Assembly (NCBI GenBank): GCA_043800255.1
Contig: JAZDNF010000008.1
Location: forward strand, 92,622-156,621
Source: Candidatus Altiarchaeota archaeon
Lineage (GTDB): Archaea; Altiarchaeota; Altiarchaeia; IMC4; SCGC-AAA252-I15
Direction: 5' to 3'
Length of the DNA: 64,000 bases
Shown here: positions 1-31,752 of the stretch, in pieces
Position numbering within the stretch: position 1 is the first letter of the stretch
How the letters are laid out: each line of letters starts with the position of its first letter
Translations under genes and position numbers: made by a program
Notes under the pieces: model-generated
What the model was told of the DNA's origin: nothing
The model's database searches: none
What the model saw: the letters and a program-made list of their open reading frames with translations, nothing else

Positions 1-1512
1 CTTTTTGGCTGCCGTGAATTTTATCGCATTATTGACCATGTTATCAACAGCCTGCATTAGCTTGGACCTGTCTGCGGGAACGTCTATCCTGCTTTTTTCG
101 AGTTGCTGGTCAAATTCCAACTGCACACCCCTAACGGCTGCAAGTTGTCTGTGGCCGGAGACGCTGATGCCTACCACCTCACCCACGTTCACCGACTTTT
201 TTAGGATATCAATCCTCCCCTTTTCTCTAAACCAAGCGTTCAGCTTATAGGCTTCAACTGCATCTTTCATAGTAGTTGCCCGCGCTAGGATGTCAGTTAT
301 CACGTCAATAGCCTCATCGTTGCCAGCAAACATTTCTGCAAGATCCTCTGCGCTTGATATTATTATATTAGTATCGTTTCCAATATTGTGGATTGCCCCG
401 GCTGCCATCTTTTTGACTGTCTCATGCGTGCGGGCGTTTATTATTGCCGATGCTGTCACGTTCGTGAGTGCTCGGAGTCTGTCGATGTTGGCGTGTTTCG
501 CCTTTTCGGGGTCCTTGTAGTAGACTCGCATCGCGACAATGTCCTCGCCCTTCAGTTCTATCGGTATGTTGTAGATTACGCCGTCCTCCATATCAATGTC
601 GCGCATAAGCTCTGGGTCGACTCTGCTTTCCTTCCCTTTTGCAACCTCATCCTTGACGTTTATCACCTCAACGTCCTTTTTTTCCAGCAATTCGCGGATT
701 AGAGGCCTGGTTTCGCCTTTTTTTCTCACCTCTGCGATGTAACGGTCCAGACTCTCCTGTTCTTTCCCGCTGAAGCCTTTCATGTAGATGTCAATATCGT
801 GCAGGGTGTGTACGTTCCTCAATCTTATGTCAACCTTGTCCGCTCCGGATACTTTCAGTGCGGCTTCCATGATGTCCTCTATCGTATCGTCCAGTTTTAA
901 TCTGTTGGCGTGCGCTGTTACCGCGTACAGTAGGTTATCATGGTAGTCTTTGACTTGGGCGCCCCTTATCATGGCACCCCCAAGCTTGCTTAGGAGGTTC
1001 AGCCCGAACAGCTGCTCTCCGGTTATCTCCTTCTTGTCCTCATTGTCCGCCCATATGACTCCGACCAGTTTTTGTTTGTCATCGAATAGTGGAACGGTGG
1101 CGAACTCCTGGAATTCTATGTAACCCCTGGATAATCTTGGATCGCGTCTAGCGTCCTTAAAGTGGTGGGCTTCTGTGTTCCCCGCCAGCGCCTCGCGGGC
1201 CGTATGCGCCATCGCATCACCCTCAGCGTCCAATGGCATGGTGGCTTTCCCAGGGGGAGAGGACAGTCTCTTACCCTTCAGTTCGAATCTGCTTTCCAGG
1301 GTTTTCTCCTCCGGATTGAAAAAGTACAGTCCTGCGCGTTTCAAACCTAAGTCATCCACCACATGTTTCAGGATATCCTTTGATGCCGTGCTTAACGCAG
1401 ATGCGCTTGTATACTCTTTGAACGCGTTTTCAACATCCCACACGCCTGGAAGCCCCTTCTGCTGCGTTGGGGATGTATTATCCTGAGGAGTTTTGAAAGC
1501 CTCATGCACCAT
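1..1512 (-). CDS. Soluble sensor histidine kinase (GAF, GAF-like, HisKA, HATPase_c), 3'-truncated by the window edge
   Basis: Manually translated open frame from ATG at 1512 (MVHEAFKTPQ...) to position 1, absent from the ORF track; GAF-like FATVPLFDDKQKLVGVIWADN, H-box AGAIHNIGNDTNII, N-box DRSKLMQAVDNMVNNAIKFT. Confidence 0.85.
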   Translation of the reverse strand, partial: MVHEAFKTPQDNTSPTQQKGLPGVWDVENAFKEYTSASALSTASKDILKHVVDDLGLKRAGLYFFNPEEKTLESRFELKGKRLSSPPGKATMPLDAEGDAMAHTAREALAGNTEAHHFKDARRDPRLSRGYIEFQEFATVPLFDDKQKLVGVIWADNEDKKEITGEQLFGLNLLSKLGGAMIRGAQVKDYHDNLLYAVTAHANRLKLDDTIEDIMEAALKVSGADKVDIRLRNVHTLHDIDIYMKGFSGKEQESLDRYIAEVRKKGETRPLIRELLEKKDVEVINVKDEVAKGKESRVDPELMRDIDMEDGVIYNIPIELKGEDIVAMRVYYKDPEKAKHANIDRLRALTNVTASAIINARTHETVKKMAAGAIHNIGNDTNIIISSAEDLAEMFAGNDEAIDVITDILARATTMKDAVEAYKLNAWFREKGRIDILKKSVNVGEVVGISVSGHRQLAAVRGVQLEFDQQLEKSRIDVPADRSKLMQAVDNMVNNAIKFTAAKK

Positions 1513-3870: not shown

Positions 3871-3900
3871 CTATTATGTCTAACATTACTTTCAGATACT

Positions 3901-3996
3901 GTTCTTTCTTGGGGGATGCGGCCGACCTTTGGTCGGGCGCGTGTCGAACCTTTAGGTCGCCACATAGAACAACTTTCTTTCTTACAAGAAAGAAAG
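3901..3996. repeat. Cluster of short palindromes in the tRNA 3' trailer
   Basis: CCGACC-TTT-GGTCGG, CGAACCTTTAGGTCG and CTTTCTTTCTT-AC-AAGAAAGAAAG (3973-3996); the last is the same hairpin found inside the adjacent tRNA intron. Confidence 0.7.
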
Positions 3997-4002
3997 GGGT
4001 CT

Positions 4003-4136
4003 TGGGCCTGCGGCGATTCGAACGCCGGACCACTCGATCTCTCCAACCTTCTTTCTTTTCGCGAACGTTTTCTTTCTTCCTAAGAAAGAAAAGGTTCTAT
4101 GAGTCGAGCGCTCTGACCAGTCTGAGCTACAGGCCC
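4003..4136 (-). tRNA. tRNA with CAU anticodon, most likely tRNA-Ile2 (agmatidine type; elongator Met not excluded), 59-nt intron at 37/38 (4039-4097)
   Basis: GGGCCTG/CAGGCCC-A acceptor, GCTC/GAGC D-stem, CTCGA/TCGAG anticodon stem, CT-CAT-A loop, CGGCG-TTCGAAT-CGCCG T arm; BHB-like junction (bulges TAG and AGA, outer helix AACCTT/AAGGTT). Confidence 0.9.
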
Positions 4137-4287
4137 GTCTTTATTCTTTTTTTATTATTGGGCCATTAAGCGACCGATTGGGAGCGCATATGGCTCAACC
4201 GAGACATCCGTCTCGGTGAGCACGAAGACGAATGTCTTCGTTGCTCCTTTGGCCAGCCTTTAAAAAGGCTGTGAGCTACAGGCCCGT
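4123..4287 (-). repeat. 16-bp direct repeat of the tRNA 5' end (4123-4138 and 4272-4287) enclosing three hairpins
   Basis: TGAGCTACAGGCCCGT present twice; hairpins ACCGAGAC/GTCTCGGT, CGAAGAC/GTCTTCG and CAGCCTTT/AAAGGCTG in between; TATA-like TTTATTAAA (minus strand, ~4310-4318) upstream of the outer copy. Confidence 0.85.
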
Positions 4288-4326
4288 TTTGTGGATATAG
4301 TATTTGGTGTTTAATAAAAAATACGG

Positions 4327-4539
4327 TCAGCCTTCGATTTTGAGGTTGTCTATCCATTGTCTGACGTCGTCTTCGGTGTCGCCTTTGGTGCGTTTCATCA
4401 CCATCTTGTGGAGGTTTGAGAGGAAGTCGAGGTTGTATTCTTCGGCCAGAGGATGGGGGTCAGCGAGGAGGTACTCTGAGAGTTCTTGGTTTATCCGGTG
4501 GTAGAATCTTCTGATTTCTGTGGGGTGGGTTTTGTCCAT
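4327..4539 (-). CDS. Small hypothetical protein
   Basis: 70-aa ORF with ATG start and AT-rich upstream promoter region; LDFLSNLHKMVM weakly resembles a Fic N-terminal helix. Confidence 0.5.
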   Translation of the reverse strand: MDKTHPTEIRRFYHRINQELSEYLLADPHPLAEEYNLDFLSNLHKMVMKRTKGDTEDDVRQWIDNLKIEG

Positions 4540-20275: not shown

Positions 20276-21928
20276 ATGCCAGACGCTAAGCCGAAACAAC
20301 GTATAAGAGACGGTAAAGCATGGCAGACTGTAGAAGGACTCCCTGAGATTCTAAGCGTTAAGGAGGAGAGGAGGAGCACCATAAGAAAGCGTGAAGGCGA
20401 ATGGTATAAGCAAGAGAGGGGCAAATACGGGGTATACGACGATAACGTAAGGGCTTGGACGCACGCAACGCACGTTTCCCACGCCAAAGAGGAATTTCTG
20501 GTCTACCCTACGCAGATAAGGGAGAAGGACAGAACCTCCGAGGAAAGGGTTTATTCTAATGCTATCGCGGTAGACAGCATAACCACAGGCGAGAGGTATA
20601 CTTTATATGAGACTTGGTTTGACAGGACAGGCCGCGGAGAAGTCAGCGAAAAAGACGCTAACCCCGACAAGCACATCAGAAAATGGACTCTCAGGGGCGG
20701 GCCGAAGGACATGTACGCAGGCGCAAGGAAGAGGACGAACTTCCTGCTTAACCCTGATGACGGCATAATAGAGGCCAGGTCCAGGACATCGGGCGAGACC
20801 AGAACCGACTTCGTGCTTGGCGGCAACCTGACGAGCGACGAGAGAAGATTCTTCATAGGCGGCTTCACGACGACGATAGGATACTGGGAGAAACAGTATC
20901 AGATGCTGAAGGACAGCGTACAGCTCTTAACCTATAGGATTAGAGGGCATGACGTCACAAGAGCCGGGAGGCAGATGGAAGACCCGACAGAGTATCTGGG
21001 AAACATCACCAAGAAGCCGGAAGCCTATCTGAAACACTGCGCAAATGACATTGGAGTAGCAATAGACGAGAGCAATAGGATTCTGAGGATACTGCCGGTA
21101 CTTTCAAAAGCGTCTCAGGAGAGCGATGACATACCAGGCGAGTTCAAATTCGCTGACACTAGGAGAACGAACAAGGCTAAAACAGTAGAGCAGGTTGACC
21201 TGATAGGCCACAGCATGGGAGGCATGATCGCAAGGAAATCCATAGTAGACAACCCAGATCACGTCAAGAGCCTGACGCTCGTCTGCTCGCCGCCGGACAG
21301 AGTACTGCTGAGGGACGTTAAAGCCCTGAGCATAGTCTCCGGGCTGCCTGCGAGCGTGCCGATACCGACAGGCGTGAAAGTGGGGGCGTATGTCGGAGCC
21401 AGAATCGTCTGGGACATGCTACCCAAGAGTGTCGGCAGGTCGATAGGAACCAGTCTCGCCACGGCAGGACTGTGGACGCTGAAAAAGCTGGCAACTTCGG
21501 CTGCGATAAGGAACAGTTTGAACGTAGGCTACAGGGCTCAGGCGGCGATCAGGGGGACTAAGGCCATGGACTGGGAGCAGTTCGACACGTACATAGGAAA
21601 ATTCCGGCAGACTCCAGCGTATACACTCCAGCACGCCCTCAAGGCCATGGCATCCTTCAACCCTAAAAGCTTCCGCGAATTCGCAAAATCGCTGGAATGC
21701 ACCACCCCGATAATGATAGTCGCTGGGGGCAGGGACTCGATAGTGGACCCAGCGGACTGCGAGAATGAAGCGAAGGACATAGGAGCGCTTTTCGTGAGCT
21801 TCACGAACTGCGATCATGGCCTCCCCATGGAGGAGCCGGAGCTGTTCCATGATGTGACCGAAGAGTTCATAAGGACCGGCAACGTCACTCCACAGGATGG
21901 GATAGAAGTCAGAGACTACAGGAAGTAG
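20276..21928 (+). CDS. Alpha/beta-hydrolase with long unrecognised N-terminal region
   Basis: Nucleophile elbow LIGHSMGG, acid GGRDSIV, His CDHGLPME. Confidence 0.8.
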   Translation: MPDAKPKQRIRDGKAWQTVEGLPEILSVKEERRSTIRKREGEWYKQERGKYGVYDDNVRAWTHATHVSHAKEEFLVYPTQIREKDRTSEERVYSNAIAVDSITTGERYTLYETWFDRTGRGEVSEKDANPDKHIRKWTLRGGPKDMYAGARKRTNFLLNPDDGIIEARSRTSGETRTDFVLGGNLTSDERRFFIGGFTTTIGYWEKQYQMLKDSVQLLTYRIRGHDVTRAGRQMEDPTEYLGNITKKPEAYLKHCANDIGVAIDESNRILRILPVLSKASQESDDIPGEFKFADTRRTNKAKTVEQVDLIGHSMGGMIARKSIVDNPDHVKSLTLVCSPPDRVLLRDVKALSIVSGLPASVPIPTGVKVGAYVGARIVWDMLPKSVGRSIGTSLATAGLWTLKKLATSAAIRNSLNVGYRAQAAIRGTKAMDWEQFDTYIGKFRQTPAYTLQHALKAMASFNPKSFREFAKSLECTTPIMIVAGGRDSIVDPADCENEAKDIGALFVSFTNCDHGLPMEEPELFHDVTEEFIRTGNVTPQDGIEVRDYRK

Positions 21929-21973
21929 AAAGAGCAGGTATTTTAATCCTATTCCCATTTTTTATTCCAGATC

Positions 21974-24787
21974 ATGGCTGAAGAGGTTGATTTCAAAAAT
22001 GTCGAGGAGAAGTGGCTGAAAAATTGGGAGGACTCTAAAGCCTTCCAGTCGAACCCAGACGGCAGGGAAAGATTCTATATCACCGTAGCCTACCCCTACC
22101 CTTCTGGTAGCATGCACGTCGGCCACGCGCGCACTTACACTGTGCCTGATGTCATAGCCCGCTTCAAGCGCATGCAAGGCTATAACGTCCTGTTCCCCAT
22201 GGCCTGGCATGTGACTGGCACTCCCATAATAGGCGCAGTCAACAGGCTGAAAAACAGGGAGGAAAAGCAGCTCAGGATCCTGAAGGAAGTGTGCGGCGTC
22301 TCGGAATCTGACTTGAAGCAGATGGAGACACCCATGGGCTACGCCCGCTATTTCATAGAGAACCACTACTACGCGTCAATGAGACGGCTCGGGTATACCA
22401 TAGACTGGAGGCGGCAGTTCACCACAAACGACAAGCACTATAACATGTTCGTCACCTGGCAGTACCTGAGCCTGCACAAGAGGGGGCTCCTGAAGGAGGG
22501 ACTGCATCCCGTGAAATACTGCCTCCATGACAGGAACCCGGTGACAACCCACGACCTCCTTGAGGGGGAGGATGCTGACATCCAGGAGTTCACGCTCCTG
22601 AAGTTCAAATTCGACAAGGAGTATCTGATTGCCGCGACACTGAGGCCTGAGACGGTGTTCGGGCAGACTAACATGTGGGTCGGCCCGGACATAGAGTATG
22701 TAAAGGCTAAAGTCGGGAGCGAGAGTTGGATAATAAGCGAACAGTGCGCGAAGAAGCTAGAACTCCAGGGCAAGAAAGTCGAAGTTACGGGGAAGGTTAA
22801 AGGCTCCAGCTTGATAGGAGAGTACTGCACCGCTCCCGGAATAAAAAGGGACATAATAATCCTGCCATCAGGGTTCTGCGACCCTGCGATCGGCTCAGGC
22901 CTCGTGACATCGGTGCCGAGCGACGCGCCCTACGACTGGATGGGCTTGAAGGATTTACAGGAGAACAATGAGCTATGTGAGAAGTACGGCCTCGACTGGA
23001 ACAAGGTAAAGAGCATAGAGGTCATACCAATAATAAGGACAGAGGAGTTTGGCGACAGGGCAGCCTTGAAAGTCTGCGAGGATATGGGAATAACAAGCCA
23101 GAAGGACACTAAAAAGCTCGAAGAGGCGACGAGCATAGTCTACAAGACCGGCTTCCATTCCGGCGTCATGAACGAGAACTGCGGCAGATACAAGGGCATG
23201 GCAGTCGTCAGGGCGAAGGAGAAGGTAAAAGAAGAGCTCCTCGAGAACGGCGAAGCAGACAAGATGCTCGAATTCTCCGAAAAAGTCAGGTGCAGGTGCG
23301 GCGGAGATGTGGTGGTCGCGAACGCGGAATCATGGTTCGTCGACTACAGCAACGAAGACTGGAAAGAGGTTACAAGAGCGGCCATAGGGCAGCTTAACAC
23401 GATACCTGAGAAGACCAAGCAGGAGTACCTTAACACGGTCGACCGGATGCACCCTTGGCCGTGCATCAGGAACTTCGGTCTCGGAACCAGACTGCCGATC
23501 GACGACAGGTTCATGATAGAGCCGCTCTCCGATTCCACGATATACATGGCCTACTATACGATATCCCACATCCTGAAGGAATTGAAGCCGGAGCAGCTGT
23601 CTGAGGAGTTCTTCAGCTATGTCTTCAGGAACGAGGGGAAACCTGATGAAGTCAGCAAGAGAACAGGCATCAAGCTTGAGACGCTAAAAAAGATAAAGGA
23701 AAGCTTCGACTACTGGTACCCGCAGAACTGGAGGTGCTCGGCCTTGGAGCTGATACAGAACCACCTCACGTTCATGATGTACCACCACACAGCCCTCTTC
23801 AACGCGGACAAATGGCCTCGGGGGATAGCAACCTTCGGGATGGGCCTGCTGGAGGGGCAGAAGATGTCCTCTTCGAAGGGGAATGTCGTCCTCCTAAAGG
23901 ACGCGATCGTAAAACACGGCGCAGACGTCATTAGACTGTTCCTCATGGGCAACGCCGAGCCTTGGCAGGATTTTGACTGGAGGGAGAGTTTCGTCCAGAG
24001 CACCTCCAAAAAGATGAGGAACTTCTATGAGATGGTATCGGAGCCAAAGGGCAGCGACCTGGAAGTGAGGGACATCGACAGGTGGCTTCTCTCAAGGCTT
24101 AACAGGACAATCAAGGGAACGACAGAGTCTCTGGAGATATTCCAGACGCGGAAGGCATTGCAGCAGGCGTTCTATGAGATGTTCGGGGACATCAACTGGT
24201 ACATGAGGAGAGCTGAACCTAACCGGAAGGCCCTCTCCAGAGTCTACCACGCCTGGGTCAGGCTGATGGCACCGTTCACCCCCTTCATCTGCGAGGAGCT
24301 GTGGAGTAGGATGGGAGAGAAAGGCTTCATCTCCAACGCAGAGTACCCGAAACCCGATGAGAGCCTGATAAACCCAGAAATAGAGGCCATCGAGAGCATG
24401 ATACAGGCAGTGATGGATGACGTGCAGAACATACTTGACGTCACCAAGGTGACGCCGAAGACAATCCACCTTTACGTCGCTCCGGAATGGAAGCGGAAAG
24501 TCTATAATGCGATAGCAGACAACAGGGGGATGAAGGAGCTGATGGCCGACCCTGAGCTGAAAAAATACGGCAAAGAGATTGCCAACATCATGAAGAAGAG
24601 GAGGGATGAGCTTCCCAGGACGATTGCCACATCATCAAGGGAAAAGCAGGCCCTGGATGATGCTGTTGGATTCTTGGAAGAGGAGTTCAGCTGCCAGTTC
24701 AAAGTCCACGAGAAAGCTGACTTCGACCCTGAGGGCAAGGCTAGATACGCTCTGCCTGCGAAGCCAGGCATCTACATAGAATCCTAG
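21974..24787 (+). CDS. leuS: Leucyl-tRNA synthetase (archaeal type)
   Basis: [43 protein letters not shown]. Confidence 0.97.
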
Positions 24788-25542
24788 GATGCCGACGCGT
24801 CAATGCAGTCTTCCGCGAAATCGCGTATGACACCCAGATCAAGTTTGCCCTTCTTTGACTGAAGGTTGCTGGGGCAGAACAGCTGCGGGACGGTGCCGAT
24901 GTCATAGTAGCCTGCAGCGCACTCTGGAAGCCGGTCAGATGAGTCTCCCATCAGTATCCTCCTGACAGTGTAAGGTTTCCCCTCATAGTCCAACTCCGCC
25001 AGCTCACCCAAGTACTCATCCACCTCATCGCATCCGGGGCAGTTCATGGAATAGTAGTAGATTATAGTATCAGCCCCTATCCCATATTTTGAGAAGCACT
25101 CACCAGCATTCCCAATGTTAGCCCTCAGGACTTCACATGCCTTTTCATTGAATGTGAGAGTGCACAGCGCCTCCGCAATATTATGCTTGCTCCTCGCTAT
25201 CGTAAGATACGCCCTCCCCTTGTAGACAACATACAGTGAAGGATTATAGACCGTGTCCGAGATGACGGGATTGATGGGAACATCGAACTCAGAGCCTATG
25301 GAATCCAAAACCTGAGCATCACCGTAAAACGTGTCACAATCCTCGCAGGTCGGCGGAACCCTCTTCGAACAGTCAACGCACCTGCCAGGATACATGTAGA
25401 ACACCCCCACATCATCAGAATAATTATAGGAGAACGGAAGCCCCCCATCCGGATTCAAGAAAAAAGCCTGATAAATCCTAAAACCCAAGACGAAACCGAC
25501 CAAAGTCAACAACACAATCATCAACGCAGTCTTAGTCTTCAT
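24784..25542 (-). CDS. Membrane-anchored Cys-rich thioredoxin/glutaredoxin-like protein
   Basis: N-terminal TM; [17 protein letters not shown], cis-Pro-like TVPQLFC. Confidence 0.6.
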
Positions 25543-25629
25543 CTTTTTTTACCATAATACCACTATAGGTATACCAATTTGTAACCACACTATAAAAAGT
25601 TACAAAACCAGATAATACAAAGATAACAC

Positions 25630-25710
25630 AATGCCAGGGTGGCAGTCAAACCTCGCCTCAAAAAAGGCTCAGACCCGCCACCCCAGAAGAATAAAATGCC
25701 GGGGTGGCGG
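25630..25710 (+). repeat. Duplicated tRNA-Ser 5' end plus antisense segment in the tRNA leader
   Basis: AATGCCAGGGTGGCAG (25630-25645) vs AATGCCGGGGTGGCGG (25695-25710), 14/16 identical; CCGCCACCCC (25675-25684) is the exact complement of 25701-25710. Confidence 0.75.
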
Positions 25711-25839
25711 AGCACGGTTCATCGCGCAAGCCTGGAACAACCTTTTCCCGCCCCTCACGGGGCGGCAAAACGTTAACGAAAAGAATACAGCCAGCTTGTC
25801 GTCCATGCGGCGGCTTGGGTTCAAATCCCAACCCCGGCG
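25698..25839 (+). tRNA. tRNA-Ser(GGA) with 55-nt intron at 37/38 (25738-25792)
   Basis: GCCGGGG/CCCCGGC-G acceptor (G73), CAAGC/GCTTG anticodon stem, CT-GGA-A loop, long variable arm, TTGGG-TTCAAAT-CCCAA T arm. Confidence 0.9.
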
Positions 25840-25984
25840 ATCTACTCAAAGTACAAATCCCCTCCTCATTTTCAGATATTTGGTAGGTATCCCCGATTCT
25901 GCACGTTTCATAAGACCAACATAGGGGCCGGAGAAAAAGAAAATAGCACGAGAGCAAGGGAAAAATAAGGGTGTATAATTAAAG

Positions 25985-26629
25985 TTAGGAGCTTGAATTT
26001 TGTTGAATATCTTGTTGAGACCGGATTACTTCGATTGTTCCAGTGTCTTTTAGAATAACAGTATCATCAGATAGAATTTCAATAAAAAGAGGTACATCTT
26101 GGTTCAATGTAATAATACTGTCTGCAGTTTTCCCAATAAATAATATCTTTCTTTCTGAACCTTCTGCTAATTTGCCATAGGCATATTTGTCAACATTTAT
26201 CGTCCCACCAAAATTACCAGGCTCAGATGACGATCCCAAGAGAGGGTACAATTCAGAGTTAACTGGTCGAATATTTTCAATATGTTCAGGATAATACTTA
26301 ATCACAAGAGTAGTTTCTTCATATATCCTATTACCGAGTGGGTACTCAAGATCCATGCGAGTTATGAATGTAGAATTTTCAGATATTTTTTTAATGCCGG
26401 TTCTATCATTTGCCCACGAGTAGTTGGTATTAATAATATCTCGCAATTCTATGTCAGAAGTTTCAAGAATAGCAATACCTGGCCCTATTGGGTAGATAAG
26501 TTTAATTCTGAAAGATGGTGGATCTGCATTAGTTTGATATGGAACACTCCCTAAACCACCGTTATCCATGCACCCAGATACCATAACTAAGGTGAGAATA
26601 ACTGTACTAATCTCCTTTTTCATCCTCAT
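25985..26629 (-). CDS. Putative lipoprotein
   Basis: MRMKKEISTVILTLVMVSGC lipobox-like N-terminus; AT-rich. Confidence 0.65.
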   Translation of the reverse strand: MRMKKEISTVILTLVMVSGCMDNGGLGSVPYQTNADPPSFRIKLIYPIGPGIAILETSDIELRDIINTNYSWANDRTGIKKISENSTFITRMDLEYPLGNRIYEETTLVIKYYPEHIENIRPVNSELYPLLGSSSEPGNFGGTINVDKYAYGKLAEGSERKILFIGKTADSIITLNQDVPLFIEILSDDTVILKDTGTIEVIRSQQDIQQNSSS

Positions 26630-26671
26630 TATGTTTACATATTTAATATACAGAGGGTATAAAAAGATTAC

Positions 26672-28150
26672 ATGCCAACATTCTTTGTAGATTCTAATCT
26701 TTTTTTACAGTGTAAAAAAATTCAAGAAATCCCATGGGGGGACGTATCAGATGAGGATAGTACCCTTGTCTTGATACCACGGCCAGTTCAAATTGAGATA
26801 GATAGATTAAAACAATCTGGGAATACACGCCTAGCAAAAAGAGCAAGAGAGGCCAACTCCTTTTTCAGGGATATGATTGACAATAACGACACATTTCAGT
26901 TCAATCAAAATTCAAAGGCTATATGCTTTAAGTTTGCTCCAAACTATAAAACTTCGGAATTGGAAAAACAAGACGATCGATTAGATATTAGCAAAACGGA
27001 TGACGAGATAATTGCAAATGCAATAATTTATAGAAAAGAAACCAGTGACCTAGATGTCTTCCTATTAACTCATGACACAAATCCAATTTTAACTGCCAAA
27101 CAATGTGGATTACCGTATAAAAGAATTCCGGATTCTTGGCTACTAGCCCCCGAACTGGATAGTAGGGATAAACGGATTGCTAAACTTGAGGAAGAGATCA
27201 AGACAATTAAAAAATCTTCCCCTAATGTAAAAATCGAACACTCTATAGATAGCGAGAATAGTACTGATGGGTATATAGAAGTTAAAACTTTTAATGATCT
27301 TTCAGAAGATGAAAAATCAACTATCATTGATCAGTTAAAATCAAAATTCCCACTCAAAGATGATTTTTCATTTGAACACATACGAAAAGATAGAACTAGG
27401 GATTATGGGGTTATGTCATTACTATTTGGTGAAAAACAATTCGTACCTCCAGATAAAGAAGATATTGAGGATTATAAAAATAACAGATATCCAGATTGGA
27501 TTAATAAAGTAAGGTCTTGGTTAAATGAAATACCACAGTATCTTCAATATCCTTTTCACAGGCTCAGATTACGATTAAACGTATCAAATGATGGTAATAC
27601 CCCTATTGAACATTTTTTATTAGCATTCAAGAGCCATGGAGGTATTCTAATAAAACCAGGAGATAATGATTTAGAGTCTGATGAACAGCTTAAAATATCA
27701 CCAATTCCGCCACCCCCTCGGCTTCCAGAGGGAAAATGGATAAGAGTAAATACATCCTTCTTATCACAGATGAAGGGTATATCCGATCTTTCTGGAACTC
27801 TTAGAGATCAATATCTTGGTTTAATTCCTGAAAATATTGTGCCATATACAAACTCTTCATCAAGGAGAGATCGTCATGGGATATATTATAAAGGATCCAG
27901 ACCAACAGATTTTGTAGATTCATTTGAATGTGAATGTGATGAATTTAGACATAAAATTGATCCAGAAACTTTTGATTTGATTGTATCTATCCCAACTGAT
28001 GAGAAAATAGTAGAGGGAGTTATATCTTGCATAATAACAGGAACTAATCTACCAGAACCAAAGAGAGAACATATCAAGTTAAATTTTAAACATGCTACAG
28101 GAGATAGTTATACCGAAGTTCAAAGATTGATAAGTGAATTAAATCCATAA
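26672..28150 (+). CDS. PIN-domain protein with coiled coil and large C-terminal domain
   Basis: FFVDSNLFL, EIDRLK, DDEII, LLTHD acidic PIN tetrad. Confidence 0.8.
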   Translation: MPTFFVDSNLFLQCKKIQEIPWGDVSDEDSTLVLIPRPVQIEIDRLKQSGNTRLAKRAREANSFFRDMIDNNDTFQFNQNSKAICFKFAPNYKTSELEKQDDRLDISKTDDEIIANAIIYRKETSDLDVFLLTHDTNPILTAKQCGLPYKRIPDSWLLAPELDSRDKRIAKLEEEIKTIKKSSPNVKIEHSIDSENSTDGYIEVKTFNDLSEDEKSTIIDQLKSKFPLKDDFSFEHIRKDRTRDYGVMSLLFGEKQFVPPDKEDIEDYKNNRYPDWINKVRSWLNEIPQYLQYPFHRLRLRLNVSNDGNTPIEHFLLAFKSHGGILIKPGDNDLESDEQLKISPIPPPPRLPEGKWIRVNTSFLSQMKGISDLSGTLRDQYLGLIPENIVPYTNSSSRRDRHGIYYKGSRPTDFVDSFECECDEFRHKIDPETFDLIVSIPTDEKIVEGVISCIITGTNLPEPKREHIKLNFKHATGDSYTEVQRLISELNP

Positions 28151-28231
28151 AAATCGCAGTCCTCTGGTTTTGGGCCGGGCTTTGAAGACTGAAGCCACCT
28201 CTCAACCTCGGCGTAGCGTTTTTTATGCGCG

Positions 28232-28453
28232 TTAGGATAGGGATTGTCTGTTGATTTTTTTGTCGAGTAGGGAGCTCATGGAGATTCCTTCTTTCTCAGC
28301 CTCTTCTTTCAATTTCCAGTATGTTCTGTATTGTATTGTAAAACTTCTGGTGACTTTGTCTAAAGCGAACTCTCTGTTTTTATCATATTCCTCGAACATT
28401 TTCGTGTACTTTTTGTTATCATCCAAGATCAACAAGGTTTCCTTATCCAACAT
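28232..28453 (-). CDS. Putative antitoxin with C-terminal ribbon-helix-helix
   Basis: KVTRSFTIQYRTYWKLKEEAEKEGISMSSLLDKKI; overlaps the Doc-like gene. Confidence 0.65.
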   Translation of the reverse strand: MLDKETLLILDDNKKYTKMFEEYDKNREFALDKVTRSFTIQYRTYWKLKEEAEKEGISMSSLLDKKINRQSLS

Positions 28454-28814
28454 TGTTTTTTCCTCCGCTTATCGCGTATCTCAACCTGTATTCGATTCTT
28501 TTAGCATCGTCTAACACAGTCTTTGTTACTTTCAAGAGTTGTTTCGCAAGACGTTCCTTTCTATCATCCGTAAGTTGATAACCATGCCTAAAAAACAACA
28601 CAGCCGCTATGTCAAAGGCCGTTCTCTTATCAGCGTCTGAAAAACTGCGGTCTACTAATATAGCACGCCACAACAATGCGATTTTTCTGAACACGTTTTT
28701 GTTTTTTCCCGCATCTAAAGCAAAACTTAAACTTCCCATATTCAATTGTCCCCCGCCCCCTCCTTTTTTGTTAATTTCTATGATATCCTCTAAAGTGAGG
28801 TCTTTCTCATCCAT
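28443..28814 (-). CDS. Fic/Doc-family (death-on-curing) protein with degenerate active-site motif
   Basis: LTLEDIIEINK, KIALLWRAILVD-RSFSDADKRTA vs canonical HPFxDGNKRTA. Confidence 0.75.
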   Translation of the reverse strand: MDEKDLTLEDIIEINKKGGGGGQLNMGSLSFALDAGKNKNVFRKIALLWRAILVDRSFSDADKRTAFDIAAVLFFRHGYQLTDDRKERLAKQLLKVTKTVLDDAKRIEYRLRYAISGGKNNVG

Positions 28815-29047
28815 TTTAGGACAGTTATCAACATTTTGGTAAATTTTAGTTTACTATATATAATATTATATAACTTGATATAAATACTATTAGAAATCGA
28901 TAAATTGCAACATATTCATATAGTTGATTAAATAATCAAGTATTAAAATCATATATATAAATTTATACATTGAATCTTGCAAATAGATTCATTCCCGATG
29001 ATTTTTTCTTAATAATCGCGTAGAACGGTATTGTTAACCTGGACACC

Positions 29048-29572
29048 TTGAAAGCGTCTGGGAGTTCTAAGGCGGGGAAACTGGCGAAGAAGAATCTCAG
29101 GAGGGAAGACCATGAGGCGTTGGCGGTTTGGGCTGCTGACTGCGCCGAGCATGTGCTCCCCTACTTTGAGAAAGAATACCCAGAAGATGATCGCCCTCGG
29201 AAAGCCATCAAAGCATGCCGAAGGTGGGCGCGTACCGGCGTGTTCAGGATGGCAGACGTGCGAAGAGACTCGCTCGCAGCCCACGCTGCCGCACGCGAAG
29301 CGAAAGAGGACAGCGCAGCCCGCTATGCAGCCCGCGCCGCAGGCCAAGCAGTAGCGACTGCACACGCGCCCAGGCATGCGATCGGCCCCGCATGGTATGG
29401 TATCAAAGCCGCCGAAGCTGCAGGCGTTGCAGATGAGCGTGAGTGGCAGCACTCGCACCTCCCGAAACGTCTTCATCCAATGGTGTCCGCTGAAGCAACA
29501 CGACACGGCAGAAAAAACCCGGGACGAAAAAGATACCGACATTTAAGTATTGCATCAAAGGACATGCAGTAA
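29048..29572 (+). CDS. Imm-5-like putative immunity protein
   Basis: LAVWAADCAEHVLPYFE...DDRPRKAI...AARAAGQAVATAH..HA. Confidence 0.8.
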   Translation: MKASGSSKAGKLAKKNLRREDHEALAVWAADCAEHVLPYFEKEYPEDDRPRKAIKACRRWARTGVFRMADVRRDSLAAHAAAREAKEDSAARYAARAAGQAVATAHAPRHAIGPAWYGIKAAEAAGVADEREWQHSHLPKRLHPMVSAEATRHGRKNPGRKRYRHLSIASKDMQ

Positions 29573-29917
29573 ATCCGTTATCATTGAGAGGGGATTCGAA
29601 CTCCCAGCACCGCTCTGAACTCTGGCGATTAATTTGCTCTTCTCAGAAAAAAAGAAATCTGGGAGTTAGGGTTCCCGATTGCAATAGACATTGGTTCACG
29701 GCAAAAAGTGCGCGAAAGGGCGAGAATATGGCTTAAAACGCTATATAGCGGGGCTGGAGAACGATGGCTGCGGCTCCGGTATATTTTTATATTTTTGTTT
29801 GAAATAATCATATGGAGTATCTTGTCTACCGGTCTTCGATCCTGGGGTTGGGAGGATGGCGCATATCCTGATTTTGGATAGGGGATGTTGAAGGGAAATC
29901 GCAAAGACTTCTGAAAA

Positions 29918-30745
29918 ATGAATGAAACGCAACTAATTGAGAATTTGGACATCATCTTTAAGAGAGAGTATTTCTATCGAGTGCAGCATGACGGCATTGA
30001 CAGAAAGTATGAGAAAAGACAGTGGGGAGGAAAAATCAGAAGAGTCATATCATTGGATGATAATGTGACGTCTGACTCATCCAGTTCCTCTACAACAGAC
30101 TACATAGAGAAGAATCCCAAGAAGGTAACATTAAAGTTTCCAGCATTAGAATATCTGGAGAAACTTCATGAACAGGTTAAATGTGACAATAACCTGAATT
30201 CAAAATTCATGGAATACTTGGATAAGACTCTGGCCAACACACCAGACTGGAGGACTGTAGTCTCATACCTGTCATTTGAATTCCTGCTGAAGAACGGATT
30301 TCTGAATGAAGCCTTAGAGGGATTCAAAGAGATGGCCAAATCGAAAATCCCGTCCAGAAATCTCGTGAACATACTGAATGGCATACTGAGTTATGAGCAC
30401 TACAGATTCAACAGGAATGACTTCGATAAAATCGAGGATACGTTAGACTCCATATTGGACAAATACCCCGGCTTCTATCTACTATACAACCCTCTGTTGA
30501 CGATAATAAATACCCTGAAATTCGAAAGACTGAAGTCGGAATTGGACTCCATAACAGACGCCAGGATAAGGAGGGACATCCTGATATCCCTCCAAAAGCT
30601 GACGGAGGAGGAGAAACTATCGCTTGAAAAACACAAGGTCATTATCATCGACAAACTGTCTGACTTGCCTCAAGCGATCTTCGAGAAATATTGCCAATAC
30701 AACGCATACGAACCAGCGGACATACAATTTACAGATGTAAGCTGA
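29918..30745 (+). CDS. Hypothetical protein
   Basis: 275-aa helical-looking ORF; no motif recognised. Confidence 0.65.
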   Translation: MNETQLIENLDIIFKREYFYRVQHDGIDRKYEKRQWGGKIRRVISLDDNVTSDSSSSSTTDYIEKNPKKVTLKFPALEYLEKLHEQVKCDNNLNSKFMEYLDKTLANTPDWRTVVSYLSFEFLLKNGFLNEALEGFKEMAKSKIPSRNLVNILNGILSYEHYRFNRNDFDKIEDTLDSILDKYPGFYLLYNPLLTIINTLKFERLKSELDSITDARIRRDILISLQKLTEEEKLSLEKHKVIIIDKLSDLPQAIFEKYCQYNAYEPADIQFTDVS

Positions 30746-30813
30746 TACTCCACGGGAATTCTGTTTCTGTCCTGTGGGGGCAAATTTTTTTAAGCCTAAA
30801 TCCTGGTGCTTTT

Positions 30814-31752
30814 TTATTCTAATTTCACGTATCCGATGATTCTGGGGTTTTTGCGATTGGGATCCAGTAGGAGGATGCGGTCCGATATCAGGGGTATCTG
30901 TTTTTCCAGCTTGATTTTCAACACTCCGGTTCCGCCAGGCTTCAGTGAGCCTGAGACCAGGCTTGCGGGAGTGTAATTCATGCTTGAGTTTACCATGATC
31001 TGGTCGCCTTCCTCCAGGCCGGGGCGGGCGTACTTCGATAAAGCAGCCTCCGATTCAATAATGTCGGCGACAGGAATGTCGCTTCGCGTTGAAAGGATGC
31101 TCCCCCGCTCAACCTGATCAGGTTTCACGTCCTTGAGGGCGACTCCAACGCAGACCCCACAGCCGGCCTCGGCAACGTCAGTATCGTGAACCTGGATGGA
31201 CTTGACAAGAGTCTCAATCTTTTTGGGGTAAATCAGGACGCTATCGTGCTTGCGCAACACCCCTTCCTTTACGACGCCCAACGCGACCGTGCCGACGCCT
31301 TTCACCGGAAAACAATGATCCACCTGCACTACAGGCTCGCCCTCAGAATGCAACGACAATTTTGAAAGAGCATCCCTGATGGAGACTACCTGATTCTCCA
31401 CCTTAGGATAGGAGGAGAGTACGGTGCCGCCGAAAAGAGGCTCCACAGCCTCAGCAGGTATGCCGCCCAGGATTACGTAGCCGGTCTCCAGCCCGTAAGC
31501 GTCAATGGCGACAATCATCTCCCCCAGTAGGCTGTCAACCGCGTCAACCTTCAGGAGAACCTGGTCCGCGATGTTAAGAGCTGACGCGAGAGACTGGATT
31601 TTCTCAGGGTATGATGTAGGCGCCACAAAAGACAACAACACATCATTATGCCTGTGATTGAACAATGTCACATCGCTTTCAGTCCCCTTCCTCCCCAACG
31701 AAGGCCCCAGACCAGCCCCCAAGACGACGGTAACATTCCCCTTCGAAGACAT
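30814..31752 (-). CDS. Archaeal SelB-like / EF-Tu domain II protein with degenerate G domain (aSelBL-like)
   Basis: LGRKGTESDVTLFN, YPEKIQSL, VDHCFPVKGVGTVALG, KSIQVHD; start MSSKG at 31752. Confidence 0.8.
   Translation of the reverse strand: MSSKGNVTVVLGAGLGPSLGRKGTESDVTLFNHRHNDVLLSFVAPTSYPEKIQSLASALNIADQVLLKVDAVDSLLGEMIVAIDAYGLETGYVILGGIPAEAVEPLFGGTVLSSYPKVENQVVSIRDALSKLSLHSEGEPVVQVDHCFPVKGVGTVALGVVKEGVLRKHDSVLIYPKKIETLVKSIQVHDTDVAEAGCGVCVGVALKDVKPDQVERGSILSTRSDIPVADIIESEAALSKYARPGLEEGDQIMVNSSMNYTPASLVSGSLKPGGTGVLKIKLEKQIPLISDRILLLDPNRKNPRIIGYVKLE

What the first reader, a model, noticed from the sequence alone, without database searches (positions are those of the whole stretch)
25630..25710. 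tRNA-Ser has the same leader architecture, plus an antisense segment that could sequester its 5' end
Seen: a 14/16 copy of the tRNA 5' end (-3 to +13) 65 nt upstream, a GCCT-N6-AGGC mini-hairpin, CCGCCACCCC exactly complementary to tRNA nt 4-13, and AAGAATAAA (25687-25695) just before the tRNA. The same 9-mer precedes the tRNA-CAU (4140-4148, minus). So both intron-bearing tRNAs show 5'-copy / hairpin / AAGAATAAA / tRNA. Inference: a shared insertion mechanism with ~16-nt duplication, or a folding switch in which the decoy copy and the real 5' end compete for the antisense segment and control maturation.
Basis: partly seen in the sequence, partly recalled or inferred. Interest (0 to 1): 0.7.

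Follow-up and report, generated by a model that had tools for sequence, protein, structure and literature searches.

The report
Acceptor-stem-copy hairpins in archaeal tRNA leaders
The copy of the tRNA-Ser 5' end and the antisense segment upstream of the gene are the two arms of one hairpin, a member of a conserved family of leader hairpins that copy the acceptor stem of the tRNA they precede and have not, as far as I could find, been described.

Summary
None of it is chance. The "decoy" (25633-25645) and the "antisense" (25675-25684) are the two arms of one leader hairpin.

Related hairpins sit in one to five tandem units upstream of tRNA-Ser, and of some tRNA-Met, tRNA-Cys and Leu-like genes. 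I found them in two orders of the 61-genome phylum. Their stems covary: 11 of 16 pairs show changes on both sides. The first seven bases of the 5' arm equal the first seven bases of the downstream tRNA in 43 of 48 units, and in 17 of 18 units where that sequence is unusual.

TATA-like boxes lie upstream of the arrays, not next to the tRNA. The hairpins are therefore most likely transcribed as part of the pre-tRNA leader.

The tRNA-CAU leader is built the same way. A copy of the tRNA 5' end pairs with GGCCC and closes a structured RNA of about 125 nt. An A-rich spacer containing AAGAATAAA follows, then the tRNA.

My best reading is that these are acceptor-stem-mimic (minihelix-like) leader modules handled by the tRNA processing enzymes. 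No expression data were available, so function is inferred.

The parts
25592..25599 (+). TATA-like box (TATAAAAA). It is the only A/T-only run of 7 or more within 200 nt upstream of tRNA-Ser(GGA).
   Evidence: Its centre is about 103 nt from the tRNA start and about 38 nt from G1 of the 5' copy. That is the spacing seen at copy-less tRNAs of this genome (about -30 to -39).
25622..25632 (+). Leader motif GATAACACAAT immediately before the 5' copy.
   Evidence: The same 10-mer, GATAACACAA, directly precedes the real tRNA-Ser(GCU) at G000:C11:35309. It occurs 5 times in the genome. It is also seen in relatives' Ser leaders (L020, L066).
25633..25645 (+). 5' arm of the leader hairpin. It copies tRNA nt 1-13 (GCCAGGGTGGCAG), with G-to-A changes at positions 4 and 12.
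25651..25654 (+). Conserved CCTC (C[C/T]TC in all 12 aligned type A hairpins). It is complementary to nt 4-7 of the copy.
   Evidence: Alignment A2. Alternative folds.
25655..25668 (+). Inner mini-hairpin GCCT-N6-AGGC.
   Evidence: An inner hairpin of varying sequence occupies this place in 11 of the 12 type A units; the G019 unit has none.
25669..25674 (+). Conserved TCAGAC motif (TC[A/G]GA[A/C] in most type A units) next to the 3' arm.
25675..25684 (+). 3' arm of the leader hairpin (CCGCCACCCC). It pairs with tRNA nt 4-13 in 10 of 10 positions and with the upstream copy in 8 of 10.
25687..25695 (+). AAGAATAAA in the A-rich spacer before the tRNA.
   Evidence: Orthologous type A leaders end in CCAAGAATAA|G (L029) and CCAAGATAA|G (L056).
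25698..25839 (+). tRNA-Ser(GGA). It carries a 55-nt intron at 25738-25792, after nt 37.
   Evidence: Rfam RF00005, 40.1 bits. ARAGORN. Sequence read.
4310..4323 (-). TATA-like A/T run (TATTTTTTATTAAA), about 32 nt upstream of the tRNA-CAU 5' copy.
4272..4285 (-). 14-nt copy of the tRNA-CAU 5' end (GGGCCTGTAGCTCA). Its first five bases form the closing stem of the leader RNA.
4165..4271 (-). Structured insert, here called 'X': an E-like hairpin followed by a conserved two-hairpin core.
   Evidence: Fold z-score -6.4. An 89% identical second copy lies at G000:C11:42292-42480. There is no Rfam match.
4160..4164 (-). GGCCC. It pairs with GGGCC of the 5' copy, and GGCCCA equals the tRNA's own 3' acceptor end.
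4140..4148 (-). AAGAATAAA in the A-rich spacer before tRNA-CAU.
4003..4136 (-). tRNA with anticodon CAU, with an intron of about 59 nt (about 4039-4097). It may be tRNA-Ile2, judging from its likeness to tRNA-Ile(GAU) at G000:C11:41966-42128. That assignment is an inference.
   Evidence: Rfam RF00005, 53.7 bits. ARAGORN..

Best explanation
The 5' copy and the antisense segment are the two arms of one leader hairpin. This hairpin belongs to a conserved family of acceptor-stem-copy (minihelix-like) modules. Each module starts with the first 7-13 nt of the tRNA it precedes, ends with the complement, and is followed by a short spacer that resembles the tRNA's own leader.

The modules stand singly or in tandem arrays between one upstream promoter and the tRNA, so they are transcribed as part of a long pre-tRNA leader. 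The tRNA-CAU leader follows the same principle on a larger scale: the copy GGGCC pairs with GGCCC and closes a structured RNA of about 125 nt.

The most likely mechanism is inferred, not shown. Each module looks like the top half of its tRNA. RNase P, and possibly the 3' processing enzymes, would therefore treat it as a tRNA-like unit. The leader would be cut at each G1 into hairpin-plus-spacer pieces, and the tRNA would be released. Normally the antisense arm is occupied by the decoy arm and does not hold the tRNA 5' end.

What is shown: the architecture, its conservation, the covariation, the tracking of the cognate tRNA, and the promoter placement.

What is inferred: transcription as one precursor, cleavage by RNase P, and any role of the released hairpins.
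For: 1. The same architecture occurs at all three clear tRNA-Ser genes of the own genome.
2. In the relatives' loci examined, 26 of 50 Ser-type tRNA genes with a confirmed T-arm have at least one upstream unit, often 2-3 units about 52-60 nt apart.
3. The common hairpin type (19 units) forms pairs in 87.5% of cells, against 33-48% when the partner columns are slid. Eleven of 16 pairs change on both sides, and 0 of 500 shuffles reach the covariation score.
4. This window's hairpin type (12 units) forms pairs in 79.2% of cells, against 33-49% slid. Double changes occur at pairs 5-56 and 12-49, which follow the tRNA's own A5/G5 and G12/T12 variants.
5. A covariance model of the hairpin hits 17 of 49 genomes of the order at E<=0.01. 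At E<=0.001 it hits 18 of 61 genomes of the phylum, including a second order.
6. Of 59 hits examined, 51 have a same-strand tRNA within 330 nt downstream.
7. In 43 of 48 unique hairpins the first 7 nt equal nt 1-7 of that tRNA. This holds for 17 of 18 where the tRNA does not start with GCCGAGG, including tRNA-Met and tRNA-Cys. The control, comparison with the other start types, gives 2 of 384.
8. TATA-like runs centred at -48..-26 are found relative to the tRNA in 2 of 26 unit-bearing genes and relative to the first unit in 11 of 26. In unit-less genes they are found relative to the tRNA in 11 of 24. In the window, the only such run for Ser lies 38 nt before the copy, and for CAU 32 nt before the copy.
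9. The tRNA-CAU leader folds with the copy paired to GGCCC (z = -6.4).
10. The genome has an archaeal RNase P RNA (98.4 bits).
11. According to the abstract of PMC3035440, Pyrococcus RNase P RNA cleaves model hairpin-loop substrates.
12. One hairpin of the family has its own TATA-like box and no tRNA downstream on its strand, at G000:C11:35025-35065.
Against: - There are no expression data. No RNA run was listed, so the TSS, the processing sites and the existence of released hairpins are untested.
- The distribution is patchy (17 of 49 genomes of the order). The own genome scores 0 with the model at E<=0.01 in the order-wide search, because it carries the other hairpin type and degenerate units. 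The own-genome search scored only 150 of 513 candidates.
- RNase P needs no sequence identity with the cognate tRNA, so the minihelix reading does not by itself explain why nt 1-7 are copied exactly.
- The 3' arm often carries a conserved A opposite position 3 (unpaired in 14 of 19). The base after the hairpin is not conserved.
- In this window the decoy has two mismatches. Thermodynamic folding prefers antisense:tRNA pairing, which fits the switch rival better.
- Some arrays are exact tandem repeats (L018 3x53 nt, L066 2x77 nt). This shows recent duplication, which can mimic conservation.
- Related genomes are not independent samples.
Confidence: 0.55

Rival explanations
1. Folding switch. 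The antisense arm can pair either with the decoy or with the real tRNA 5' end. The balance, set by temperature, a protein or the order of transcription, decides whether the acceptor and D stems can form and so whether the precursor matures.
For: - The three-segment layout S / S' / S is the classical attenuator topology.
- In the window the antisense matches the tRNA in 10 of 10 positions and the decoy in only 8 of 10.
- The minimum-energy fold of the leader plus the tRNA start, and of the whole precursor, pairs the antisense with the real 5' end.
- Across 10 loci of this hairpin type the two states differ by a few kcal/mol. The minimum-energy fold picks antisense:tRNA in 6 and decoy:antisense in 4.
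- A conserved C[C/T]TC (25651-25654) gives the displaced decoy a partner.
- Decoy, antisense and tRNA change together at positions 5 and 12.
Against: - In the commoner hairpin types the arms diverge from the tRNA after nt 7 and stay complementary to each other. There the antisense could form only 6-7 pairs with the tRNA, against 15-16 in the hairpin.
- Tandem arrays of up to five units are not expected of a switch.
- Energies were computed at 37 C without tertiary structure or modifications, and the growth temperature is unknown.
- No effector is known.
Confidence: 0.2
2. Non-functional relics. The copies are leftovers of duplications, or of integration and excision of mobile DNA at the 5' part of tRNA genes. 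Direct repeats of the tRNA 5' end would then flank what remains of the insert.
For: - Passages of PMC3293823 describe a 5' fragment (nt 1-27, with identical upstream sequence) 1.8 kb upstream of an intact tRNA-Thr gene in Caldiarchaeum. The authors explain it by a mobile element that encodes a recombinase.
- In the own genome several other tRNAs (Arg-GCG, Phe, Glu, Ile-GAU) show [promoter + leader + tRNA nt 1-14..23] + an intron-like element + [promoter] + tRNA, with no antisense arm.
- Some arrays are exact repeats.
Against: - The inserts here are 30-125 nt and encode nothing.
- Stems keep pairing through compensatory changes.
- Hairpin types and their order (one type distal, the other proximal) are shared between families.
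- Exactly nt 1-7 are kept identical to the cognate tRNA while the neighbouring positions drift.
Confidence: 0.12
3. Chance similarity in a G+C-rich tRNA neighbourhood.
For: A loose genome-wide scan for 'tRNA 7-mer ... reverse complement' hairpins gave as many hits with reversed 7-mers (135) as with real ones (136). Short inverted repeats as such are therefore common.
Against: Position, orientation, recurrence at paralogues and orthologues, covariation and tracking of the cognate tRNA all argue against chance.
Confidence: 0.01

Closest known systems
tRNA minihelix / model hairpin substrates of RNase P (acceptor stem stacked on a second helix)
   Same: The hairpin's lower stem copies the acceptor stem of a tRNA and continues into a second helix. 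The total is about 15-16 bp in the common type and about 10-11 bp in this window's type. A single-stranded spacer precedes G1. According to the abstract of PMC3035440, archaeal RNase P RNA cleaves model hairpin-loop substrates.
   Different: These are natural, genomically encoded units in the leader of the cognate tRNA, often in arrays. They have a 2-nt bulge or an internal loop instead of a T-loop, and often a C.A mismatch at position 3. Cleavage has not been tested.
tRNA-like structures used as processing signals (tRNA punctuation of mitochondrial transcripts, mascRNA-type elements). Recalled from general knowledge; no call.
   Same: A tRNA-like fold inside a longer transcript recruits the tRNA end-processing enzymes to cut the transcript.
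   Different: Here the mimic is only the acceptor helix, it copies the neighbouring tRNA exactly, and it lies in that tRNA's own leader. No such case in archaea turned up in my searches.
tRNA 5' fragments created by mobile-element integration (Sugahara et al. 2012, PMC3293823; passages read)
   Same: A direct repeat of the 5' part of a tRNA gene, with its upstream sequence, lies upstream of the intact gene in an intron-rich archaeon.
   Different: There the repeat is 1.8 kb away and flanks an element with a recombinase gene. Here it is 50-150 nt away, is paired with an antisense arm, covaries and is conserved across orders.
Transcription attenuators and riboswitch expression platforms (three mutually exclusive segments). 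Recalled from general knowledge.
   Same: A segment (the antisense) can pair with either of two identical partners. The two states are near-isoenergetic in silico.
   Different: The regulated step would be tRNA maturation rather than transcription or translation. No ligand or effector is known. The layout applies only to this window's hairpin type.
Leader complementarity in split and permuted archaeal tRNA genes (bulge-helix-bulge motif). Reviews were seen only in search listings.
   Same: Sequences outside the mature tRNA pair with each other or with exon sequence in intron-rich archaea.
   Different: The predicted folds show no pair of 3-nt bulges separated by 4 bp. A complete tRNA follows, so no splicing is needed.

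Membership tests
tRNA (Rfam RF00005) | Score above the gathering cut-off of 29 bits over the full model. | tested here: met
   25698-25839 scores 40.1 bits. 4003-4136 minus scores 53.7 bits. The upstream copies themselves give no tRNA match.
Any described RNA family (Rfam 15) for the leader | A match in the leader regions. | tested here: not met
   Permissive cmscan of 25450-25900 and 3900-4400 found only the tRNAs and chance-level hits.
Archaeal bulge-helix-bulge splicing motif in the leader | Two 3-nt bulges on opposite strands separated by a 4-bp helix. | tested here: not met
   I inspected the predicted folds of the window hairpin and of about 45 related units. They show one 2-nt bulge or an internal loop and no such motif. 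No dedicated motif scanner was run.
Integrated mobile element with tRNA att duplication | A direct repeat of part of the tRNA gene flanking the insert. | tested here: met
   14/16 repeat, 65 nt apart. 14-nt repeat, 149 nt apart, at tRNA-CAU.
Integrated mobile element with tRNA att duplication | The insert carries an integrase or recombinase gene, or recognisable element DNA. | tested here: not met
   The inserts are 52 nt (Ser) and about 135 nt (CAU) and are non-coding. The conserved core of the larger inserts has no match in viral contigs.
RNase P minihelix-type substrate | An acceptor-like helix of 7 bp stacked on a further helix, with a single-stranded 5' flank. | tested here: met
   Folds and alignments. 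For the window unit the helix uses nt 4-13, with two mismatches.
RNase P minihelix-type substrate | Cleavage 5' of G1 by RNase P. | not testable with these tools
   RNase P RNA is present in the genome. No RNA data were available.
Attenuator-like three-segment switch | Two mutually exclusive pairings of comparable stability. | tested here: met
   Window: minimum free energy -32.2 kcal/mol with antisense:tRNA pairing, against -19.6 kcal/mol with the tRNA part kept free. Across the 10 loci the preference is 6 versus 4.
Attenuator-like three-segment switch | An effector, or a demonstrated change of outcome. | not testable with these tools
   None is known.

The most novel reading that the evidence does not exclude
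A phylum-wide system of 'programmable' leader hairpins. A conserved hairpin core acquires the exact acceptor-stem sequence of whichever tRNA it precedes (Ser, Met, Cys, Leu-like). It would then act on that tRNA's maturation or use through base-pair competition for the acceptor strands, or as free cognate minihelices that tRNA enzymes recognise. That would be a new layer of tRNA-specific control in archaea.
Probability: 0.2. Interest if true: 0.85.

Novelty: new variant of a known kind. Interest (0 to 1): 0.7.

Why it matters
Pre-tRNA leaders are usually treated as short, unstructured and disposable. Here a whole archaeal lineage keeps structured leader modules that copy the acceptor stem of the cognate tRNA, with compensatory evolution and tandem amplification.

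If they are processed like tRNAs, they are a natural case of minihelix substrates and a source of small hairpin RNAs. If they compete for the acceptor strands, they would be a cis-acting control of tRNA maturation.

Either way they explain why intron-aware tRNA finders and annotators see "partial tRNA" fragments upstream of real genes in these genomes. They also give concrete constructs for RNase P and structure-probing experiments.

Tried and rejected
- ARAGORN as offered by the tool found no tRNA in the window, and cmscan of the whole window at gathering thresholds found nothing. With intron options and on short ranges both tRNAs are found.
- Sequencing runs: no RNA holder was listed for window 21000-30999. 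This is no evidence on expression.
- Bulge-helix-bulge, K-turn and H/ACA readings of the hairpin were considered by eye on the folds and dropped, because the defining bulges or boxes are missing. No dedicated scanner was run.
- An 'upstream exon plus intron' reading, with the copy as the real 5' exon, was dropped. The copy's A4 and A12 would break the acceptor and D stems, while the downstream copy pairs perfectly.
- A reading of AAGAATAAA as the TATA box of the tRNA was dropped. At 3-11 nt from G1 it would place the start inside the tRNA.
- A strict regex for TATA boxes found almost nothing. It was replaced by A/T-run scoring, which is crude.
- A loose genome-wide scan for 7-mer/reverse-complement hairpins gave the same count for reversed control 7-mers (135) as for real ones (136), so it is uninformative.
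- The first attempt to define tRNA starts mis-set the register in many loci. It was redone with the T-loop as anchor. Only one search is used for counts.
- The base before G1 (T 24, C 19, A 8, G 5 of 56) and the base after the hairpin show no clear signal.
- The own-genome search with the model scored only 150 of 513 candidates and missed a hit that cmsearch on the locus finds. Absence calls from the genome-wide searches are therefore weak.
- Literature searches found no description of acceptor-stem-copy hairpins in archaeal tRNA leaders. Most results were seen as listings and abstract starts only, and supplements were closed.
- Lineage: the conserved core of the larger inserts matches two named 'uncultured archaeon' records. 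A table in PMC8561730 lists one of them as Altiarchaeota. I take this only as a hint to the lineage of the window.

Full report
OBSERVATION. The window holds two intron-bearing tRNAs. tRNA-Ser(GGA) lies at 25698-25839 on the plus strand, with a 55-nt intron at 25738-25792. A tRNA with anticodon CAU lies at 4003-4136 on the minus strand.

- A 14/16 copy of positions -3 to +13 lies at 25630-25645. G1 of the copy is 65 nt upstream of the real G1.
- GCCT-N6-AGGC lies at 25655-25668.
- CCGCCACCCC lies at 25675-25684 and is the exact complement of tRNA nt 4-13.
- AAGAATAAA lies at 25687-25695.

The same 9-mer stands at 4148-4140, before tRNA-CAU. That tRNA has a 14-nt copy of its own 5' end at 4285-4272.

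NOT CHANCE, AND NOT ONLY HERE. In the own genome (1.75 Mb, 17 contigs, nearly all tRNAs with introns), 11 of 32 credible ARAGORN tRNAs have a copy of at least 11/14 of their own nt 2-15 within 300 nt upstream. Only 1 of 32 has one downstream. Two kinds of copy can be told apart.

(a) At the three clear tRNA-Ser genes (GGA, GCU, UGA) the copy is followed by a short insert and an antisense arm, so it is the 5' arm of a hairpin.

(b) At Arg-GCG, Phe, Glu, Ile-GAU and others a longer copy (nt 1-14 to 1-23), sometimes with a duplicated promoter, is followed by an intron-like element and has no antisense arm.

The leader motifs are also shared crosswise. GATAACACAAT precedes the Ser(GGA) copy and the real Ser(GCU) gene. 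ATAAAATGC precedes the real Ser(GGA) gene and the Ser(GCU) copy.

RELATIVES. A DNA search of 40 relatives from the same family and order, with further regions fetched around its hits, gave 50 Ser-type tRNA genes with a confirmed T-arm. Of these, 26 have at least one upstream unit, often two or three units spaced about 52-60 nt apart. A unit is a hairpin whose 5' arm begins with the tRNA's own first bases, followed by a spacer of about 12-25 nt that resembles the tRNA's own leader. Three hairpin types recur:
- The common type has a 10-bp lower stem, a 2-nt bulge, a GCGAC/GTCGC-like upper stem and a small loop.
- A second type has an internal loop and a conserved GCTAACC.
- The type seen in this window has nt 1-13, then TCAnC[C/T]TC, an inner hairpin, TC[A/G]GAC and a long antisense. 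It is found in the own genome twice and in eight relatives from two families.

The distal-to-proximal order of types is shared between families.

STRUCTURE IS SELECTED. In 19 units of the common type, 87.5% of cells form pairs, against 33-48% when the partner columns are slid. Eleven of 16 pairs change on both sides, and 0 of 500 shuffles reach the covariation score. Position 3 is unpaired in 14 of 19.

In 12 units of the window's type, the outer stem pairs in 79.2% of cells, against 33-49% slid. The double changes at pairs 5-56 and 12-49 follow the tRNA's own variants, so copy, antisense and tRNA change together. These counts come from related genomes and small samples. They are not tree-corrected.

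TIED TO THE COGNATE tRNA. A covariance model of the common type hits 17 of 49 genomes of the order at E<=0.01. At E<=0.001 it hits 18 of 61 genomes of the phylum, including three genomes of a second order, where arrays reach at least five units.

I examined 59 hits: 28 from the newly fetched loci and 31 from the earlier loci. Of these, 51 have a same-strand tRNA within 330 nt downstream. Most of the other eight sit before tRNA-like sequence that ARAGORN missed or at contig ends, and one is an orphan in the own genome.

New hits precede not only tRNA-Ser but also tRNA-Met (three loci), tRNA-Cys (two ARAGORN-called loci, plus one Cys-like start that ARAGORN missed) and a Leu-like 5' end. In each case the conserved hairpin core carries that tRNA's own first seven bases.

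Among 48 unique hairpins, 43 match nt 1-7 of their tRNA in 7 of 7 positions. This holds for 17 of 18 where the tRNA does not start with GCCGAGG. Comparison with the other start types gives 2 of 384. Position 8 often differs (C in 22, T in 25), so the copied unit is the acceptor-stem strand itself. The last seven bases match the tRNA's 3' acceptor strand in at least 6 of 7 positions in 34 of 48.

TRANSCRIBED AS LEADER (INFERENCE). In the own genome, tRNAs without copies have an A/T run centred about 30-39 nt before G1. For Ser(GGA) the only such run within 200 nt is TATAAAAA at 25592-25599, about 38 nt before the copy. For tRNA-CAU it is 4323-4310, about 32 nt before the copy.

In relatives, a run centred at -48..-26 is found relative to the tRNA in 2 of 26 unit-bearing genes and relative to the first unit in 11 of 26. 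In unit-less genes it is found relative to the tRNA in 11 of 24. The measure is crude, but it places the promoter upstream of the arrays.

THE tRNA-CAU LEADER. The 154 nt upstream of tRNA-CAU fold far better than shuffles (-62.6 kcal/mol, z = -6.4). GGGCC of the copy (4285-4281) pairs with GGCCC (4164-4160), and this stem closes a multi-helix RNA. GGCCCA is also the tRNA's own 3' end.

The layout is therefore the same as at tRNA-Ser: copy, structured insert, antisense, A-rich spacer with AAGAATAAA, tRNA. An 89% identical copy of this leader lies upstream of a tRNA-Ile(GAU) 5' fragment at G000:C11:42292-42480. It also ends in AAGAATAAA.

AAGAATAAA. The 9-mer occurs 23 times in the genome, against a 0-order expectation of 13. 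Three occurrences end 2-3 nt before a tRNA 5' end or fragment. Orthologous Ser leaders of the window's hairpin type end in CCAAGAATAA|G and CCAAGATAA|G. It is thus a real, conserved leader motif of those tRNAs that lack a promoter of their own. It is not a general companion of self-copies. It lies too close to G1 to serve as the tRNA's TATA box.

SWITCH OR NOT. In this window the antisense matches the tRNA better than the decoy. Thermodynamic folds of the leader and of the whole precursor pair it with the real 5' end. In the whole precursor the decoy then pairs with the tRNA's 3' acceptor strand.

Over 10 loci of this hairpin type the two states lie within a few kcal/mol. The antisense goes to the tRNA in 6 and to the decoy in 4. 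The conserved C[C/T]TC pairs with the freed decoy. In the other types the hairpin is much stronger than any pairing with the tRNA, and arrays are hard to reconcile with a switch.

MECHANISM. The best-supported statement is structural: these are conserved leader hairpins that copy the acceptor stem of the tRNA they precede.

I commit to the following working mechanism, which is inferred. One promoter drives a precursor of hairpin-spacer units plus the tRNA. RNase P, whose RNA is present, cuts 5' of each G1, because each unit presents an acceptor-like helix stacked on a second helix. Archaeal RNase P RNA is reported to cleave model hairpin substrates (abstract of PMC3035440). The antisense arm is normally held by the decoy arm.

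Why nt 1-7 must be identical to the tRNA is not explained by RNase P. Three accounts remain open: gene conversion between spacer-flanked repeats, recognition by acceptor-specific factors, or base-pair competition.

A relic model after Sugahara et al. (PMC3293823; passages read) fits the second kind of 5' fragment in this genome. It does not fit the covarying hairpins.

KNOWN OR NEW. Rfam has no family for the leaders. Five literature searches found no description. The closest known things are minihelix substrates of RNase P, tRNA-like processing signals, att-type tRNA fragment repeats and attenuator-like three-segment designs. I rate this a new variant of a known kind.

LIMITS.
- tRNA sets are incomplete: 32 credible genes in a genome that is 93% complete.
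- Genome-wide model searches use filters that lose weak hits.
- Related genomes are not independent.
- Energies are for 37 C.

Noticed in passing
window 25738-25792 (+), 4039-4097 (-), 3967-4002 (-); about 35 copies in G000: A 45-60-nt element fills many tRNA introns and also sits directly after tRNA 3' ends and in leaders. Its form is: a basal 4-bp stem that covaries, a pyrimidine strand, a loop, a purine strand, CGTTNNCG and a purine tail. In 15 of 17 canonical copies the tail is a perfect mirror image (7-14 nt) of the purine strand; in only 1 of 17 is it a perfect direct repeat. This is what a purine-motif intramolecular triple helix would need.
   Followed up: partly
L070 (G000:C8:132700-133300), L071, L072, L069: tRNA-Arg(GCG), Phe, Glu and Ile(GAU) have upstream 5' fragments (nt 1-14 to 1-23), in part with a duplicated promoter and leader. 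Each fragment is followed by the intron-like element or by a longer form with a conserved two-hairpin core (CGAAGAC..GTCTTCG / CGAGAC..GTCTCG), and then by the intact gene. The core matches two named 'uncultured archaeon' records and no viral contig.
   Followed up: partly
L067:26-66 (+) = G000:C11:35025-35065: An orphan hairpin of the family (GCCGAGG...CCTCTGC, 31.8 bits) has its own TATA-like run about 33 nt upstream. It points towards the 3' end of tRNA-Ser(GCU) on the other strand.
   Followed up: partly
L108 (G056:C6:83250-83967), L107 (G053:C69): In a second order of the phylum, at least five tandem hairpin units precede a Ser-type tRNA start (GCCGAGGTGGCGG; ARAGORN labels this gene tRNA-Leu). 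A longer unit, closed by a copy of the tRNA's last 13 bases, follows a tRNA-Ser.
   Followed up: partly
L076 (G000:C4:4300-5000), L073 (G000:C8:212000-212700): The leaders of the initiator tRNA and of tRNA-Ala(GGC) share a further element (GCCATCTTCG...CTCGATGAC.CGTAATAA) with a C-box-like GATGA. The initiator's 5' copy AGCGG can pair with CCGCT near the end of that leader (pairing judged by eye).
   Followed up: no
spacers between hairpin and next G1, e.g. L007:1656-1677 (-): Many spacers are themselves small hairpins with covarying stems (ATTGC/GCAAT, ATTAC/GTAAT, TTTGC/GCAAA, GTTG/CAAC) around a loop such as TCACTCACGTTC. The loop shares ACGTTCGC-like sequence with the CGTTNNCG part of the intron element.
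   Followed up: no
window 1-64000: cmscan of the whole window at gathering thresholds reports no tRNA, and the tool's ARAGORN run finds none, although two are present. Automatic annotation of such genomes will miss intron-bearing tRNAs.
   Followed up: yes
whole genome: The phylum holds only 61 species genomes in the collection. A named record that shares the two-hairpin core is listed as Altiarchaeota in PMC8561730 Table 2. This is a weak hint that the window comes from that phylum.
   Followed up: partly
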